From Salmo salar (Eukaryota): a stretch of 64,000 nucleotides of DNA. Shown in pieces: positions 36,952-47,130 of this stretch. Where the stretch lies: contig NC_059464.1 in NCBI RefSeq assembly GCF_905237065.1, positions 3,047,803 to 3,111,802 of the forward strand. The letters are read 5' to 3'. The number at the start of each line of letters is the position of its first letter. Position 1 is the stretch's first letter. Both the position numbers and the translations under genes were made by a program. The notes beneath the pieces are model-generated. The model was not told the DNA's origin, ran no database searches, and worked only from the letters and a program-made list of their open reading frames with translations.

Positions 36952-37569
36952 TTTTTTTTAAATTAGCCTCCCCAAATATTTGTTAAAATCCAAGGAAAGC
37001 CTCCTAGTAAAGACCCAAGCTAGACTGTTTTGTAAACACCTCGGGGAAAGCATTCACTTCCTGGTTCTTTAACTCTCCATGGTCATGTGATAAAAACGCT
37101 ACCGTAATTCATGAAAAAGGGGAGGCAAGCTTTTTAAAGGGATTGCGTACTTAAAATCTACTGTTAGATTTGCACGCTTATTACCGAGTATATTAATACA
37201 TATCTTGAGTGAAGGTGATGTGAGTCAAGCATCTGGCATCTTCCTTTTGGAAATAAACAACCTGAAAGATGGTTCAACGTCAATACAAAATAAATACAGA
37301 ATCAGACATGTGATTTTAATATTTAAATGATGTACTAATTTAATTCATTTCCACAAACACACACTCTTCAATCAAGCTGGAAACATCAGCTAAAATTACA
37401 TTATCCATTCATTTTCTACTGCACTGTTTTTATTAATCCCAATAAATATATTTAGGAAATATTCCTACGGCTAAAACACTTCAACATTTCACAATCCCTT
37501 CATGTCCTCCGGTGTTTGAAAAGGTGTAGCTGATTCAGCAGTAGCTGATTAGCTAGCGCATTAACCTCA

Positions 37570-37771
37570 TGTGATGAGCTGCCCTGCATCTGTCAGGTGT
37601 GTGTTCAGGTGTACCCGCAGGCCGCTGGCCACAGTGAAGCTCTTGGGACACTGGACACAGCGATAGGGTTTCTCCCCAGAGTGAGTCCGTTTGTGCTTTT
37701 TCATGGTGTCTCCGTCGCTGAAAGTCCTGTGGCAGTAGGGGCAGCTGTAGGGTCTCTCACCGGTGTGGATC
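37570..37771 (-). CDS. Terminal C2H2 zinc-finger exon: [67 protein letters not shown]. It probably belongs to gene 2
   Basis: The minus strand has the acceptor TTCTTATTATATATTATAG|GATCCACACCGG. The exon opens in the middle of a finger (R-IHTGERPY). Joining it in phase 2 to the donor at 46253 (..CTG AG|GTTGGA) gives [27 protein letters not shown], a complete C-X2-C-X12-H-X3-H finger with a canonical linker. The stop codon is at 37567-37569. Confidence 0.5.
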
Positions 37772-37800
37772 CTATAATATATAATAAGAATAAATAAAAT

Positions 37801-38225
37801 AAATATATCTACACTACCGCTCAAAAGTTTGGGATCACTTAGAAATGTCCTTGTTTTTGAAAGAAAAGCACATTTTTTGTCAATTAAATTAACATCAAAT
37901 TGGTTAGAAATACAGTGTAGACATTGTTAATGTTGTAAATGACTATTGTAGCTGGAAACAGCAGCTTATTTACATAGGCGTAGAGGCCCATTATCAGCAA
38001 CCATCACTCCTGTGTTCCAATGGCACGTTGTGTTAGCTAATCCAAGTTCATCATTTTAAAAGGCTAATTGATCATTAGAAAACCCTTTTGCAATTATGTT
38101 AGCACAGCTGAAAACTGTTGTTCTGATTAAAGAAGCAATAAAACTGGCCTTCTTTAGACTAGTTGAGTATCTGGAGCATCAGCATTTGTGGGTTTGATTA
38201 CAGGCTCAAAATGGCCAGAAACTCT
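37801..38225. mobile_element. Tc1-like terminal (ITR) fragment
   Basis: TACACTACCGCTCAAAAGTTTGGGATCACTTAGAAATGTCCTTGTTTTTGAAAG... is a Tc1-type ITR/sub-terminal region resembling the CAGTCAAAAGTTTGGACA subfamily. No transposase ORF follows it. It begins about 20 bp upstream of the putative acceptor of the exon at 37771. Confidence 0.5.
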
Positions 38226-44075: not shown

Positions 44076-44196
44076 GAGAGACTTTAACCCAACACCTAGC
44101 AACCTTGTCAAGAGGTTTGGATCTTTGGGCGTAACAGCGAAGGTGTTGGATTGACAGTCACTGGTCAGGACTACCGCCTAAATTCGCTACAATATA

Positions 44197-46220
44197 CAGT
44201 GAGCTACAAAACTATTAGGACAGTGACACATTTTTTGTTGTTTTGGCTCTGTACTCCAGCACTTGGGATTTGAAACGATACCATGACTGAGGTTAAAGTG
44301 ACTGTCAGCTTTTAATTAGAGGGTATTTTCATCCATATCGGGTGAACCGTTAAGAAATTACAGCACTTTTTGTACATAGTCCACCTATTTTAGGGGACCA
44401 AAAGTATTGGGACAAATTCACTTATATGTGTGTTAAAGTAGTCAAAAGTTTAGTATTTGGTCCAATAGCCCTAGCACGGAATGATTATAGCAAGTTTGTG
44501 ACTCTACAAACTTGTTGGATGCATTTTAATGTAAATAAGAATATAATATGTTTCTAAACACTTCTACATTAATGTGGATGTTACCATGATTACAGATAGT
44601 CCTGAATTAATCGTGAATAATAAAGTTAGACGCACAAATATCATACCCCCAAGACATGCTAACCTCTCACCATCACAATAACAGGGGAGGTTAGCATTTT
44701 GGGGGGGTATGATATTTGTGCGTCTAACTTTCTCATTATTCAAGATTCATTCAGGACTATCTGTAATCATGGTAGCATCCACATTAATGTAGAAGTGTTT
44801 AGAAACATATTATATTCTTATTTATATTAAAAGTGACTCCAAAACGACAATACATTACCATTCATTTCTAGTCGGCACAAAATAATCTGAAACACAACCA
44901 AAACAAACAGCAAATGCATCCAACAACAACTTTCTCACTCATCATCATTCACGATTCATTCAGGACTATTCGTAATCATGGTAGCATCCACATTAATTAT
45001 ACTCCTTTTGCCATGGGACAAAGACAAAAATGTTTCCAGTTTTACAGCAAATTTTCTTAAATTCTACCCCTTTTGCCATGTGATGGACATAATCGTTTTC
45101 AGTTTTAAAGTAAATTTCCTGCAATTCTACACAATTTCCCATGACTTATGCAATGTTAATGATATCTGAGTGAGAGTGACTAACAAAATCAATGGGGGCC
45201 ACCTGGAGTTCAGGGCCCCTGGGGATGTGCCCTGCGTGCACGGTCGGTAGTTGGCCATGATTACAAGTTTAGATAGCTTGCCAGACTAACATACCATTCT
45301 AAAAAGAGTTATCTGACATGGCTAATTGAGTGACTGTCAGTGATGACAAAACAAGAGAAAAATTGCTGATGCATAACCAAATGTTGAACTTGCACCTTGT
45401 GTATTCTACTATTCTAACTCTTAATTAGTAAGTTGAGACCACAACTGCGGTGCTTATGCCTGGAGCCGGCCCTGGTGATAGGGGTAAACCAGGTAGCGTA
45501 GCCTAGTGGTTAGAGCGTTGGATCGAATCCCCGAGCTGACAAGGTACATATCTGTCGTTCTGCCCCTGAACAAGGCAGTTAACCCACTGTCCCTAGGCCG
45601 TCATTGAAAATAAGAATTTGTTCTTAACTGACTTGCCTAGTTAAATAAAGGTAAAATAAAATAAAAAAATGGAGGACAAGTTGTCATAGGCCAACAACCT
45701 ATATAGCCCATACTGCCATACCTGCCCAATACCCAGGCCCCAGCCACAGAGTCAGTATTTCGCTTTTATGTGAAGATAGATGGCTGTTTAGAAACATATT
45801 CTATTCTTGTTGACCAAAAAATGTATTGACTCCAAAATGACACAATGCATTATTTACCATTCAATTCTATTGGGCACAAAATAATCTGAAACAAAAATGA
45901 AAACAGCAAATGCATCCAACAAGCTTGATGTAATCATTGCGTGCAAGGAATATGGGACCAAATACTAAACTTTTGACTACTTTAATACACATAAGTGAAT
46001 TTGTCCCAATACTTTTGGTCCCTTAAAATGGGGACAATGTACAAAAAGTGCAGTAATTTCTAAATAGTTCACCCAATATGAATGACAATACACTTAAATT
46101 TAAGCTGTCAGTCTGCAGTTGAATGTAATAGTCATTGTATTACTTCAAATCCAAAGTGCTGCAGTACAGAGCCAAAAATAACAAAATATGTCACTGTCCC
46201 AATACTTTTGGAGCTCACTG
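44197..46220. mobile_element. Foldback-like element with inverted arms of about 350-440 bp and CAGTG termini (CAGTGAGCTACAAAACTATTAGGACAGTGACA ... TGTCACTGTCCCAATACTTTTGGAGCTCACTG)
   Basis: Arm A at 44197-44560 is the reverse complement of 45770-46220. A roughly 290-bp near-perfect palindrome at 44537-44830 is centred near 44680. Partial arm copies lie at 44830-45000, and a SmaI SINE is nested at 45485-45668. It has no coding capacity. Confidence 0.6.
45485..45668 (+). mobile_element. SmaI-type tRNA-derived SINE
   Basis: GGTAGCGTAGCCTAGTGGTTAGAGCGTTGGATCGAATCCCCGAGCTGACAAGGTACATATCTGTCGTTCTGCCCCTGAACAAGGCAGTTAACCCACTGTCCCTAGGCCGTCATTGAAAATAAGAATTTGTTCTTAACTGACTTGCCTAGTTAAATAAAGGTAAAATAAA(A)n. 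Confidence 0.8.
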
Positions 46221-46252
46221 CATAATAATACAATATAATAATGTATTCCAAC

Positions 46253-47130
46253 CTCAGGTGCCGTCTCAGGTTGCCTCTCTGGGTAAAGCTTTTGGAGCAC
46301 CAGGAGCAGCGGTGGGGCCTCTCCCCCGTGTGGATACGGTGGTGGCGCCGCAGGTCAGCCGACTGGGCAAAGGACTTACAGCACCAGTCACAGGCGTAGG
46401 GCTTCTTATACTGAAGGTGGAGGTGGAGGCTGGCCGCCTGGCTGAAACTCTCCCCACATCGGGTGCAGCGGTGTGGGCGCCCCTCCTGGTGGTCGGTGGG
46501 GGTGAAGTTGTTACTCTCGTTGTATGGCAACACCTGGTCCTTGGACCCAGGCTCTGTTTCATATGTTTGCTGGTCATGTACGGGTGTGTTATGGAGCTCT
46601 GAGATGTCCATATCTGGAAGGTCTTTGAAGCCAGCGTCGCCTGAGAGTTCATGGTTGTGGGGTAGTAGTGTTATAGGAAGACCTGTGTAGCCTGAACTGG
46701 ATTGAGGTTCATGGTTGGTGAGGTTCAATGTGACGTCGCATTCCTTGGGTTCCATTTTGATCCGTCCCTGGATTGGGTCGATGGGAGAGGACCTCTTTCT
46801 CTCTGTCCTAAGGACTGGCACTTCAGCGTTGGCTGCTCCAGTTGTTGTGGCACAGTGGGCATTGGAGGAGAACGGAGATGGTGCCAAGGACGAGGTGTTT
46901 CCAAAACCCTTGGCTTCTGGGTCTGAGTTGTGCTCTGTCTTTGGGATTGCCTGTCCTGGACTGGACTTCTCTTCTGCTCGGACCGTTTCAGTGTGTCCCT
47001 GGTTTGGTCCTGTGAGACCCCCATCCTTACCCAACGCTACCTGGCTCTGTGTCTGTAGCCCTCGTCTGTTGACCTGGCTCTGCTGCTGGGGCTCTGGGTC
47101 CTGTTCCTGTCTGGAGCTCCACTCTTGCTC
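46253..47130 (-). CDS. C2H2 zinc-finger gene 2, main exon: linker plus fingers, ending at a splice donor that falls inside a finger
   Basis: The minus ORF 46132-47034 and its upstream extension read ...[74 protein letters not shown]. The last finger lacks its second histidine and is followed by AG|GTTGGA in phase 2. The remainder of the ORF (LEYIIILYYY...) is intron read-through. The acceptor is unresolved and the 5' coordinate is approximate. The ORF track starts this ORF at a TTG codon. Confidence 0.55.

What the first reader, a model, noticed from the sequence alone, without database searches (positions are those of the whole stretch)
37567..46253. A zinc finger of gene 2 is split across an 8.4-kb intron packed with a LINE, Tc1 elements, a nested TTAA-MITE, a SINE and a foldback element
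The gene-2 finger exon ends [19 protein letters not shown] and then the minus-strand donor AG|GTTGGA at 46253, leaving the last finger without its second histidine. The exon at 37570-37771 opens with a polypyrimidine-AG acceptor and [13 protein letters not shown].... A phase-2 join completes the finger as H-L-R-I-H, preserves the canonical HTGERPY linker, and adds two more complete fingers before a stop. Such exact structural completion is unlikely by chance. If the join is real, the intron has taken up at least five independent TE insertions and still needs correct splicing. A Tc1 ITR fragment begins only about 20 bp upstream of the acceptor.
Basis: inference. Interest (0 to 1): 0.65.

Follow-up and report, generated by a model that had tools for sequence, protein, structure and literature searches.

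The report
Transposon-filled intron splitting a zinc finger
An Atlantic-salmon-type zinc-finger gene really is split inside one finger by an 8.5-kb intron full of transposons; the gene model is already annotated and the transposon load is ordinary for salmon, but the intron appears to have been newly gained in the pike-plus-salmon ancestor.

Summary
On the minus strand, exon 2 ends at 46253 (…RHLR, AG|GTTGGA). Exon 3 (37771..37567) starts after …TATTATAG|G. The phase-2 join gives H-L-R-I-H, two more fingers and a stop. The 443-aa product is exactly RefSeq XP_014024112.1 (Salmo salar, "zinc finger protein 572-like"); the read-through product is not on record. The same intron position and splice-site sequences occur in 10 other loci (Salmo, Salvelinus, Oncorhynchus, Coregonus, both ohnologues, and Esox). 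Exon 3 has dN/dS of about 0.05 between Salmo and Esox.

Dated by presence or absence, they represent at least four insertion waves, and the TE-free core is only about 210 nt.

The new point is that Xiphias and Megalops orthologues keep intron 1 but encode ...[12 protein letters not shown]... contiguously, and the tandem paralogue also has an unsplit array. The intron is therefore most likely an insertional gain on the Esociformes+Salmoniformes stem.

Caveats: I found no direct RNA evidence, the donor is weak, and Ensembl-derived models use a cryptic TE exon instead. Overall this is an ordinary, already annotated gene model with a modestly interesting intron-gain history.

The parts
47457..47664 (-). 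Exon 1 CDS (ATG at 47664; MTKLQLLNAYLTERL...AETDW; donor C|GTAAGA, phase 1). It encodes the conserved N-terminal helical domain.
   Evidence: part of the exact RefSeq match
46253..47171 (-). Exon 2 (acceptor ctaagcAG|GT). It encodes the linker, fingers 1-2 and finger 3 up to its first histidine (...RGNLRRHL + AG of the split Arg codon).
37772..46252 (-). Intron 2, 8481 nt, phase 2, GT...AG. It lies between the two zinc-binding histidines of finger 3.
37567..37771 (-). Exon 3 CDS: the G of the split Arg codon, then IHTGERPY, fingers 4 and 5, and stop TGA at 37569-37567.
   Evidence: dN/dS 0.054 against Esox
46223..46252 (-). 5' piece of the TE-free intron core (GTTGGAATACATTATTATATTGTATTATTA). 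It is shared with all salmonid copies, and its first ~26 nt with Esox.
44195..46222 (-). 'Foldback': a non-autonomous Tc1/mariner-type element with ~330-440-nt inverted arms (46224-45785 and 44193-44526), ends CAGTGAGCTCC...GGAGCTCACTG and a TA duplication (TG/TA in this copy). Present in every salmonid locus of both ohnologues, absent from Esox.
   Evidence: arm duplex -382 kcal/mol against -106+-8 for shuffles
45495..45667 (+). SINE fragment antisense to the gene, with an A-rich tail at 45650-45667 and a 3' tail like that of the LINE at 40601-40690. Present only in Salmo (S. salar and S. trutta); Coregonus and Salvelinus have empty sites.
   Evidence: no tRNA head detected
44568..44997 (.). 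Small palindromic, TTAA-bounded MITE-like arms and duplicated sub-repeats inside the foldback (arms 44524-44621/44735-44832, 96% complementary; a third arm at 44944-44997).
   Evidence: (I1, I4, I6)
45146..45217 (-). Cryptic TE-derived exon (…GPELQVAPIDFVSHSHSDIINIA*) used, together with the alternative donor TT|GTATTA (exon end 46232), in Ensembl-derived models of S. trutta and O. kisutch in place of exon 3.
44041..44194 (-). Middle piece of the TE-free intron core, single copy. It includes the block TTGACAAGGTTGCTAGGTGTTGGGTTAAAGTCTCT, which is still alignable with Esox.
37810..44040 (.). Second Tc1-type element (ends CACTACC...GGTAGTG, TA duplications at 44040-39 and 37811-10), now 6.2 kb because of nested insertions. 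Present only in ohnologue-A Salmoninae (Salmo, Salvelinus, Oncorhynchus). Both Coregonus copies and ohnologue B have empty sites. Another copy of the family sits elsewhere in the Coregonus L010 intron.
   Evidence: (I9)
40941..43840 (-). Nested Tc1 element with perfect 23-nt terminal inverted repeats and decayed transposase ORFs (42144..41164) in the sense orientation.
   Evidence: I11; Pfam DDE_3 3.5e-11 and HTH_Tnp_Tc3_2 6.4e-08
42322..43767 (.). Nested 1438-bp piggyBac-type non-autonomous element (43763..42326; ends CCTCTATGGG.../...CCCCAACAGG) with a TTAA target duplication. It is specific to this genome: S. trutta, O. mykiss and S. alpinus have the empty site GGGTTTAAACACTG.
38222..40690 (+). 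5'-truncated LINE antisense to the gene, with decayed reverse transcriptase (YADD at ~39488) and a 3' tail shared with the SINE. It is nested in the second Tc1-type element.
   Evidence: stitched translation hits RVT_1 at 1.3e-12
37772..37809 (-). Last 38 nt of the intron (GATATATTTATTTTATTTATTCTTATTATATATTATAG). This is original intron sequence holding the AT-rich tract, candidate branch points and the acceptor.

Best explanation
The window carries a three-exon, five-finger C2H2 transcription-factor gene. It is most likely from Salmo salar, because the product is identical to RefSeq XP_014024112.1. The gene is conserved as an orthologue across teleosts.

Its third finger is interrupted, between the two zinc-binding histidines, by a phase-2 GT-AG intron. 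Splicing 46253 to 37771 is needed to make fingers 3-5 (shown by annotation and conservation; inferred for RNA).

The intron was not in the ancestral gene. Foreign DNA inserted at an AG|G site on the stem lineage of pikes plus salmonids, with no loss or gain of codons. This is inferred by parsimony from intronless outgroups and the paralogue. The original intron was short, with a TE-free core of about 210 nt.

It then grew to 8.5 kb through successive insertions:
1. A long-inverted-repeat Tc1-type element, before salmonids diversified.
2. A second Tc1-type element in one ohnologue of Salmoninae, carrying a further Tc1 and a LINE nested in it.
3. A SINE in Salmo.
4. A TTAA (piggyBac-type) element in this species only.

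Splicing survives because every insertion landed at least 28 nt from the donor and 38 nt from the acceptor, or inside an earlier TE, and because both retroelements are antisense to the gene (shown). The inverted ends of the two large TE blocks could also pair in the pre-mRNA and loop them out (inferred). The donor is weak, so some transcripts probably use a nearby alternative donor and a cryptic TE exon, giving a truncated two-finger product (inferred from Ensembl-derived models).
For: Join:
- The exact 443-aa spliced product is in the protein collection as XP_014024112.1/XP_029606198.1. The 415-aa read-through product is absent.
- The donor ...CACCTGAG|GT(T/A)GG(A/C)ATAC and acceptor ...TTA(T/A)AG|GATCCACAC sit at the same codon phase in the window and in L001-L005, L007-L010.
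- Exon 3 shows 16 synonymous and 4 non-synonymous differences between Salmo and Esox, dN/dS 0.054.

Gain:
- Xiphias (L011, exon 6002..7051 covers aa 66-415) and Megalops (L012, exon 3616..4668 covers aa 64-414) encode ...[12 protein letters not shown]... without interruption, yet both retain intron 1. They are therefore not retrocopies.
- Several genomic ORFs of acanthomorph-type orthologues also run through the site.
- Orthology is supported by BLAST scores: 280-343 bits to gene 2 against 100-157 to the neighbour.
- The tandem paralogue at 36951..35202 has its whole finger array in one exon.
- The Xiphias sequence CACCTGAG.GATCCACAC equals the salmonid exon ends, so no coding sequence was intronised.

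TE history:
- Intron lengths are 8481, 8735, 7563, 7613, 6649, 4387, 3576, 1758, 1754 and 2829 nt.
- Empty sites and target duplications were found for individual elements.
- The core is 210 nt, and Esox shares its 5' 26 nt and a ~70-nt 3' block.
- Protein-domain evidence exists for the Tc1 transposase and the LINE reverse transcriptase.

Pairing of TE ends: -382 against -106+-8 kcal/mol, and -95 against -51+-5.
Against: - I obtained no RNA-seq, EST or cDNA. A search aimed at transcript-derived ORFs spanning the junction in salmonids found none.
- UniProt entries that look Ensembl-derived for S. trutta, O. kisutch, O. mykiss and Hucho do not use exon 3. They read through the donor or splice to a cryptic TE exon or to the neighbouring gene.
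- The donor scores poorly on a rough consensus matrix built from remembered frequencies.
- The gain inference rests on only two named intronless lineages (Elopomorpha and Acanthomorpha) plus unnamed contigs. Galaxiiformes, Argentiniformes, Osmeriformes, Stomiiformes and Otocephala could not be examined because the genomic look-ups were exhausted.
- The source of the inserted DNA is unidentified. The core has no other copy in the sequence available, and the Esox intron shows no terminal repeats.
- The species assignment is by protein identity and 98% DNA identity to S. trutta, not by a match to a salmon assembly.
Confidence: 0.8

Rival explanations
1. The intron is ancient (present in the teleost ancestor of this gene) and was precisely lost at least twice, in the Megalops lineage and in acanthomorphs. 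Esox and the salmonids simply retain it.
For: It is the 3'-most intron, the kind preferentially removed by recombination with reverse-transcribed mRNA (established knowledge). In vertebrates, intron loss is generally reported more often than gain. Only two named intronless lineages were examined.
Against: This reading needs one gain plus two or more exact losses, against a single gain. The tandem paralogue keeps the finger array in one exon, as is canonical for N-terminal-domain plus array ZNF genes (PMC10547256). The intronless species kept intron 1. Several additional acanthomorph-type genomic ORFs are also intronless.
Confidence: 0.15
2. Exon 3 is not normally joined to exon 2. The main product ends in the intron (read-through, or the cryptic TE exon at 45217..45146, as in Ensembl-type models), and exon 3 is a relic or belongs to another transcript.
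For: UniProt models P0023, P0024, P0027 and P0031 end ...RHLRLEYIIIL+GPELQVAPIDF..., or read through. The alternative donor TT|GTATTA and acceptor CCCCAG|G are canonical. The annotated donor is weak.
Against: Exon 3 has no start codon of its own and is under strong purifying selection in exactly the frame the join sets. It is 97-100% identical in protein across about 10 salmonid and esocid loci, while the intron around it has turned over completely. It is colinear with the uninterrupted fingers of intronless orthologues. No other finger exon lies upstream of it inside the intron. The Ensembl-type models also carry implausible internal deletions and fusions with the neighbouring gene. The read-through protein is not in the collection.
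Confidence: 0.05
3. The completed finger is a coincidence, or an artefact of gene prediction stitching an unrelated downstream finger fragment onto gene 2.
For: C2H2 linkers (HTGERPY) are very common, so a stray finger fragment could complete a truncated finger by chance.
Against: The same junction is found in 11 loci. The residues on both sides match intronless orthologues position for position through fingers 3-5 and the C-terminus.
Confidence: 0.01

Closest known systems
RefSeq model XP_014024112.1, 'zinc finger protein 572-like' [Salmo salar], and its salmonid/esocid orthologue models
   Same: Identical 443-aa protein, hence the same three exons and the same split finger.
   Different: Nothing in the gene model differs. 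The annotation says nothing about the intron's origin or its transposon chronology.
Canonical two-exon ZNF architecture (an N-terminal effector-domain exon plus one exon for the whole finger array), as in tetrapod KRAB-ZNFs and cyprinid FiNZ-ZNFs (PMC10547256)
   Same: Exon 1 encodes a short, conserved, charged N-terminal domain and exon 2 the linker and fingers. The Xiphias and Megalops orthologues and the tandem paralogue have exactly this layout.
   Different: In pikes and salmonids the array is broken by an extra intron inside finger 3. The gene is a conserved single orthologue with five fingers, not a member of a rapidly expanding family. FiNZ is described as cyprinid-specific, and I do not claim membership.
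Lineage-specific intron gains in vertebrates (for example the 342 gains mapped on the human lineage, PMC12124190)
   Same: The intron is present in one clade and absent at the homologous site in outgroups.
   Different: That study focused on intronisation of exonic sequence. Here no codon was lost or gained, so the gain is insertional. The event is in teleosts, lies inside a zinc-finger codon, and is old (pre-dating the pike-salmon split).
Introners: transposons that create introns on insertion (PMC9860276, PMC12130899)
   Same: An insertion at an AG|G site whose ends supply or complete GT and AG. The sequence AGG flanks both ends of the intron.
   Different: I found no evidence of a repeated family. 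The core is single copy in all sequence available, it has no clear terminal repeats, and an AGG repeat is expected from splice consensus alone.
TE-rich salmonid introns: Tc1/mariner elements, and SINEs that share 3' tails with LINEs such as RSg-1 or SalL2 (PMC3747384 table; Tc1 abundance from general knowledge of the salmon genome)
   Same: Nested Tc1 elements, a LINE and a SINE with a common 3' tail, and antisense orientation of the retroelements.
   Different: Nothing unusual. Only the dating by presence or absence across 11 loci is specific to this locus.

Membership tests
C2H2 zinc-finger protein (Pfam PF00096 / PF13465) | Tandem C-x2-C-x12-H-x3-H units joined by TGE(K/R)P linkers | tested here: met
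   zf-C2H2 at 1.4e-23 (5 stretches) and zf-H2C2_2 at 4.4e-26 on the spliced product. Finger 3 is complete only after the join.
Spliceosomal GT-AG intron in a coding region | GT donor, AG acceptor, reading frame preserved across the join, and position conserved in orthologues | tested here: met
Spliceosomal GT-AG intron in a coding region | Spliced RNA observed | not testable with these tools
   No read or cDNA data are available. One search found no transcript-derived salmonid ORF across the junction.
Insertional intron gain | Intron absent at the homologous site in outgroup orthologues, with colinear coding sequence | tested here: met
   Xiphias and Megalops are contiguous across the site, and orthology is supported.
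Insertional intron gain | The intronless state is not due to retrocopying (other introns are retained) | tested here: met
   Intron 1 is kept in L011 (3207 to 6002) and L012 (2192 to 3616).
Insertional intron gain | Dense taxon sampling that excludes multiple losses | tested here: inconclusive
Introner (transposon-made intron) | Many near-identical copies forming introns in other genes, with terminal repeats or a target duplication | tested here: inconclusive
   The core has no second copy in the 64-kb window or in 12 loci, and the Esox intron has no terminal repeats. No whole genome could be searched.
[quoted passage not shown] | The 28-aa FiNZ domain; the family is described as unique to cyprinids | not tested
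   The consensus was not available for comparison. The paper restricts the family to cyprinids, and Pfam finds nothing in the N-terminal domain. I do not file the gene under FiNZ.
Tc1/mariner DNA transposon | Terminal inverted repeats, TA target duplication, DDE transposase | tested here: met
   Inverted repeats I2-I11, TA flanks and empty sites, and DDE_3 and HTH_Tnp_Tc3_2 for the 43840..40941 copy. The foldback and the 44040..37810 copy lack an intact transposase.
piggyBac-type non-autonomous element | TTAA target duplication, CC...GG terminal inverted repeats, empty site with a single TTAA | tested here: met
   TTAA at 43767-43764 and 42325-42322. Three other species have the empty site GGGTTTAAACACTG.
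LINE | Reverse-transcriptase domain and a 3' tail | tested here: met
   RVT_1 at 1.3e-12 on a hand-stitched translation. The raw ORFs gave no hit. The tail is shared with the SINE.
tRNA-derived SINE | tRNA-related head with a pol III promoter | tested here: not met
   ARAGORN and Rfam found nothing; this copy is 5'-truncated. It is called a SINE from its A-rich tail, its LINE-like 3' tail, other copies in the window and its presence only in Salmo.

The most novel reading that the evidence does not exclude
The intron was created by a mobile-element insertion into the finger-3 codon in the common ancestor of pikes and salmonids. On this reading, the ~210-nt conserved core, with its small inverted repeat CCAACACCTTAGC/GCTAGGTGTTGG, is the remnant of that element. 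It would be a vertebrate example of a transposon-made intron, in a gene whose relatives otherwise keep the finger array in one exon. The weaker claim, an insertional gain of unknown source, is already part of the best explanation at about 0.8.
Probability: 0.15. Interest if true: 0.6.

Novelty: new member of a known kind. Interest (0 to 1): 0.3.

Why it matters
The gene model itself adds nothing new. It is in RefSeq, and large transposon-filled introns are the rule in salmonid genomes.

Two things are mildly useful. First, the locus is a well-bounded, apparently insertional intron gain in a vertebrate, placed inside a structural motif, with intronless orthologues on both sides of the clade and a paralogue as a control. 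Such cases are few and could be used to study how new introns arise and acquire splice signals. Here the donor is still weak, and it differs between pike (GTAGG) and salmonids (GTTGG).

Second, presence or absence across 11 loci gives a dated series of nested insertions in one intron: before salmonids diversified, ohnologue-specific, genus-specific and species-specific. That series can serve as phylogenetic markers and as a natural test of how much transposon load a weakly defined intron tolerates.

The disagreement between NCBI and Ensembl-type models here also shows how TE-rich introns mislead annotation.

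Tried and rejected
- I first thought the N-terminal domain made this a FiNZ-ZNF. I dropped that label after reading that FiNZ is a 28-aa, cyprinid-specific domain.
- Pfam on the raw intronic ORFs gave no reverse-transcriptase hit. Only a hand-stitched translation did.
- Rfam and ARAGORN gave nothing for the SINE. The one Rfam hit (mir-3660, 26 bits against a gathering score of 70, E = 0.08) is just the MITE hairpin at 44625-44728.
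- BLAST of the Esox intron against salmonid introns found nothing. Only a local alignment of the TE-free core recovered the short shared ends.
- A search for terminal repeats in the Esox intron was negative.
- The core has no second copy in the available sequence.
- The look-up for the S. salar ohnologue P0007 found no record.
- The third protein search, aimed at transcript-derived ORFs across the junction, returned only Ensembl-type models and non-salmonid contigs.
- MaxEntScan is not available. I used a rough weight matrix from remembered human donor frequencies, so that score is only indicative.
- A literature search for a reported intron gain in this gene or in teleost zinc-finger genes found nothing specific.

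Full report
**1. What is in the sequence**

On the minus strand there is an ATG at 47664. The ORF MTKLQLLNAYLTERL...AETDW ends at a C|GTAAGA donor (exon end 47457).

A second exon opens after ctaagcAG at 47171. It runs in frame through a long linker and the fingers ...[10 protein letters not shown]..., ...[29 protein letters not shown] and [19 protein letters not shown]. It ends with AG at 46253, followed by GTTGGA.

At 37771, after ...ttattatatattatAG, the sequence reads G ATC CAC ACC GGT GAG... Joined in phase 2, this gives R-I-H-T-G-E-R-P-Y, two further complete fingers and TGA at 37569-37567.

The three exons make a 1332-nt CDS of 443 aa with five Pfam C2H2 stretches.

**2. Is the join real?**

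- **Exact protein match.** An exact-sequence look-up found the 443-aa spliced product in the public protein collection as XP_014024112.1, 'zinc finger protein 572-like [Salmo salar]'. It also appears as XP_029606198.1, and the genomic look-up placed it on a Salmo trutta chromosome. The 415-aa read-through product is not on record.
- **Species.** The window is about 98% identical in DNA to the S. trutta locus but differs by two insertion/deletion events of about 1.5 kb each. It is most likely S. salar.
- **Relatives.** The 90%-identity cluster holds 21 named proteins of 438-443 aa from Coregonus, Salvelinus and Oncorhynchus. More distant full-length relatives occur in Esox, Umbra and Dallia.
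- **Same junction in 11 loci.** I fetched ten further genomic loci with the intron. They cover the S. trutta orthologue and ohnologue, O. mykiss, two S. alpinus copies, two C. clupeaformis copies, C. suidteri and Esox lucius. In all of them the junction falls in the same codon and phase. The donor is CACCTGAG|GTTGG(A/C)ATAC (GTAGGCATAC in Esox). The acceptor is ...TATATATTATAG|GATCCACAC (...TTAATTAAAG| in Esox).
- **Selection on exon 3.** Exon 3 is 97-100% identical in protein across these loci. Between Salmo and Esox it shows 16 synonymous and 4 non-synonymous differences (dN/dS 0.054). The intron between the two species is unalignable apart from its ends.

Exon 3 has no start codon of its own, and no other finger exon lies in the intron. 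It is therefore a translated exon read in the frame that this join sets.

I found no RNA evidence. A search aimed at transcript-derived ORFs found none for salmonids.

**3. A conflicting annotation**

UniProt entries that appear to come from Ensembl gene builds do not use exon 3 (S. trutta A0A674C7N7, O. kisutch A0A8C7J0Y3, O. mykiss A0A8C7QTD0, Hucho A0A4W5PH31).

- Two of them read eight codons past the donor (…RHLRLEYIIIL), use a TT|GTATTA donor (exon end 46232) and splice to a cryptic exon at 45217..45146 inside a transposon (GPELQVAPIDFVSHSHSDIINIA*).
- Others read through the donor or fuse to the neighbouring gene.
- These models also contain odd internal deletions, so I give them little weight.

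The annotated donor is genuinely weak. It matches the consensus at -2, -1, +1, +2 and +5 but has T at +3 and G at +4. A rough weight matrix built from remembered frequencies ranks it 82nd of 516 GT sites in exon 2 plus the intron. A minor truncated isoform is therefore plausible.

**4. Transposon content and chronology**

Reading from the donor:

1. **46252-46223:** 30 nt of original intron.
2. **46222-44195:** a non-autonomous Tc1-type 'foldback'. It has 330-440-nt inverted arms, CAGTGAGCTCC ends and TA flanks. It is present in every salmonid copy of both ohnologues and absent from Esox, whose intron start matches the empty site. Two things lie inside it:
   - a SINE fragment (45495-45667, plus strand) found only in the two Salmo species, with empty sites in Coregonus and Salvelinus;
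   - a small TTAA-bounded palindromic MITE-like structure.
3. **44194-44041:** single-copy core.
4. **44040-37810:** a second Tc1-type element with TA flanks. It occurs only in ohnologue-A Salmoninae; both Coregonus copies and ohnologue B show the empty site. Nested in it:
   - a Tc1 with perfect 23-nt ends and decayed transposase ORFs (43840-40941; Pfam DDE_3 and HTH_Tnp_Tc3_2);
   - inside that Tc1, a 1438-bp piggyBac-type element with a TTAA duplication that is absent from S. trutta, O. mykiss and S. alpinus (empty site GGGTTTAAACACTG);
   - a 5'-truncated antisense LINE (38222-40690; YADD motif; RVT_1 at 1.3e-12 on a stitched translation). Its 3' tail resembles the SINE's, a known relationship in salmonids (PMC3747384).
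5. **37809-37772:** 38 nt of original intron with the acceptor.

Other lineages carry their own insertions. S. trutta has an extra 1.5 kb at about 40544. Intron lengths range from 1754 to 8735 nt.

With the foldback removed, the Coregonus intron is 210 nt. Esox shares its first 26 nt and a ~70-nt block near the 3' end. The TE-free ancestral intron was indeed short.

**5. The intron is lineage-specific**

- **Intronless orthologues.** The full-length orthologue of Xiphias gladius (49% identity) has exon 1, a 2.8-kb intron 1, and then one exon covering residues 66-415. The DNA reads CACCTGAG.GATCCACACGGG with no interruption. The Megalops cyprinoides orthologue (Elopomorpha, outside all the others) likewise has one exon for residues 64-414.
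- **Not retrocopies.** Both species keep intron 1.
- **Further intronless copies.** Several unnamed genomic ORFs of acanthomorph type begin in intron 1 and run through the junction to the stop.
- **Orthology.** BLAST scores give 280-343 bits to gene 2 against 100-157 to its neighbour.
- **Paralogue.** The tandem paralogue just downstream (36951..35202) has the same kind of N-terminal exon and its whole finger array in one exon. This is the canonical layout for such genes (PMC10547256).

One gain on the stem of Esociformes+Salmoniformes explains the pattern. The alternative needs an earlier gain plus at least two exact losses. Because the exon ends are colinear with the intronless sequence, the gain was an insertion and not intronisation of coding sequence.

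I could not identify the source of the inserted DNA. The core is single copy in everything I hold, and the AGG found at both intron ends is expected from splice consensus alone.

**6. How it works**

Every insertion lies at least 28 nt from the donor and 38 nt from the acceptor, or inside an older transposon. Both retroelements are antisense to the gene. That explains why the splice signals survive (shown by position).

The arms of the foldback, and the ends of the 6.2-kb block, can form very stable duplexes: -382 against -106+-8 kcal/mol, and -95 against -51+-5 for shuffled arms. They could loop the insertions out of the pre-mRNA and restore roughly the ancestral spacing. This step is inference only.

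**7. Comparison with what is known, and verdict**

The gene model is already annotated. Transposon-rich introns and nested Tc1 elements are ordinary in salmonids. Introns inside zinc-finger arrays are known in other genes.

Lineage-specific intron gains are rare but documented in vertebrates (PMC12124190). Transposon-made introns are known mainly outside vertebrates (PMC9860276, PMC12130899). I found no report of this particular event.

The finding is an ordinary, already annotated structure with one modestly interesting addition: a probable insertional intron gain. Interest 0.3.

Noticed in passing
window 35202-36951, minus strand: A tandem paralogue lies immediately downstream. It has an N-terminal exon of the same type (MAKLQLLNAYLTERLMVAVDEILEVV...) and a single exon holding its whole finger array. 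The gene pair is also adjacent in every salmonid and Esox locus fetched, and in Gymnothorax by consecutive gene identifiers. Two Ensembl-type models (P0028, P0032) wrongly fuse the two genes.
   Followed up: partly
window 47500-47560 (exon 1), minus strand: Exon 1 carries a 7-codon tandem duplication (RENES-AK-RENES; Esox RENES-TK-RENES) that is absent from Xiphias, Megalops, Polymixia and Aplochiton. It has the same phylogenetic distribution as the gained intron.
   Followed up: partly
L001 8812-10331 (S. trutta), corresponding to window ~40544; window 24714-26249: S. trutta has a 1.5-kb insertion in the AT-microsatellite of the LINE 3' region that this window lacks. The inserted sequence is 96% identical to a repeat copy at window 24714-26249.
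   Followed up: partly
window 45146-45217 and 46230-46232, minus strand: A canonical alternative donor (TT|GTATTA) and a cryptic exon inside the foldback transposon would give a truncated protein ending ...LEYIIILGPELQVAPIDFVSHSHSDIINIA. UniProt models of S. trutta and O. kisutch use it. This could be real exonisation of a transposon or an annotation artefact.
   Followed up: partly
window 44625-44728, minus strand: A weak Rfam match to the mir-3660 precursor (26 bits against a gathering score of 70, E = 0.08) falls on the hairpin of the palindromic MITE. It is almost certainly just the inverted repeat.
   Followed up: no
window 47882-49133, plus strand: ORFs just upstream of the gene's start (for example 48345-49133, 262 aa, ...KAVGPDGL...PVPKK...NDYRPVALTS...) look like another decayed reverse-transcriptase element lying close to the promoter region.
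   Followed up: no
L005 (S. alpinus copy B) intron ~1608-6390; L007 (S. trutta ohnologue) intron ~1748-3317; L010 (C. clupeaformis copy 2) intron ~450-3300: Each of the other gene copies has acquired its own, different large insertions in the same intron. One is a second, independently placed copy of the CACTACC-type Tc1 family in L010. The intron has therefore been hit repeatedly in parallel lineages.
   Followed up: partly
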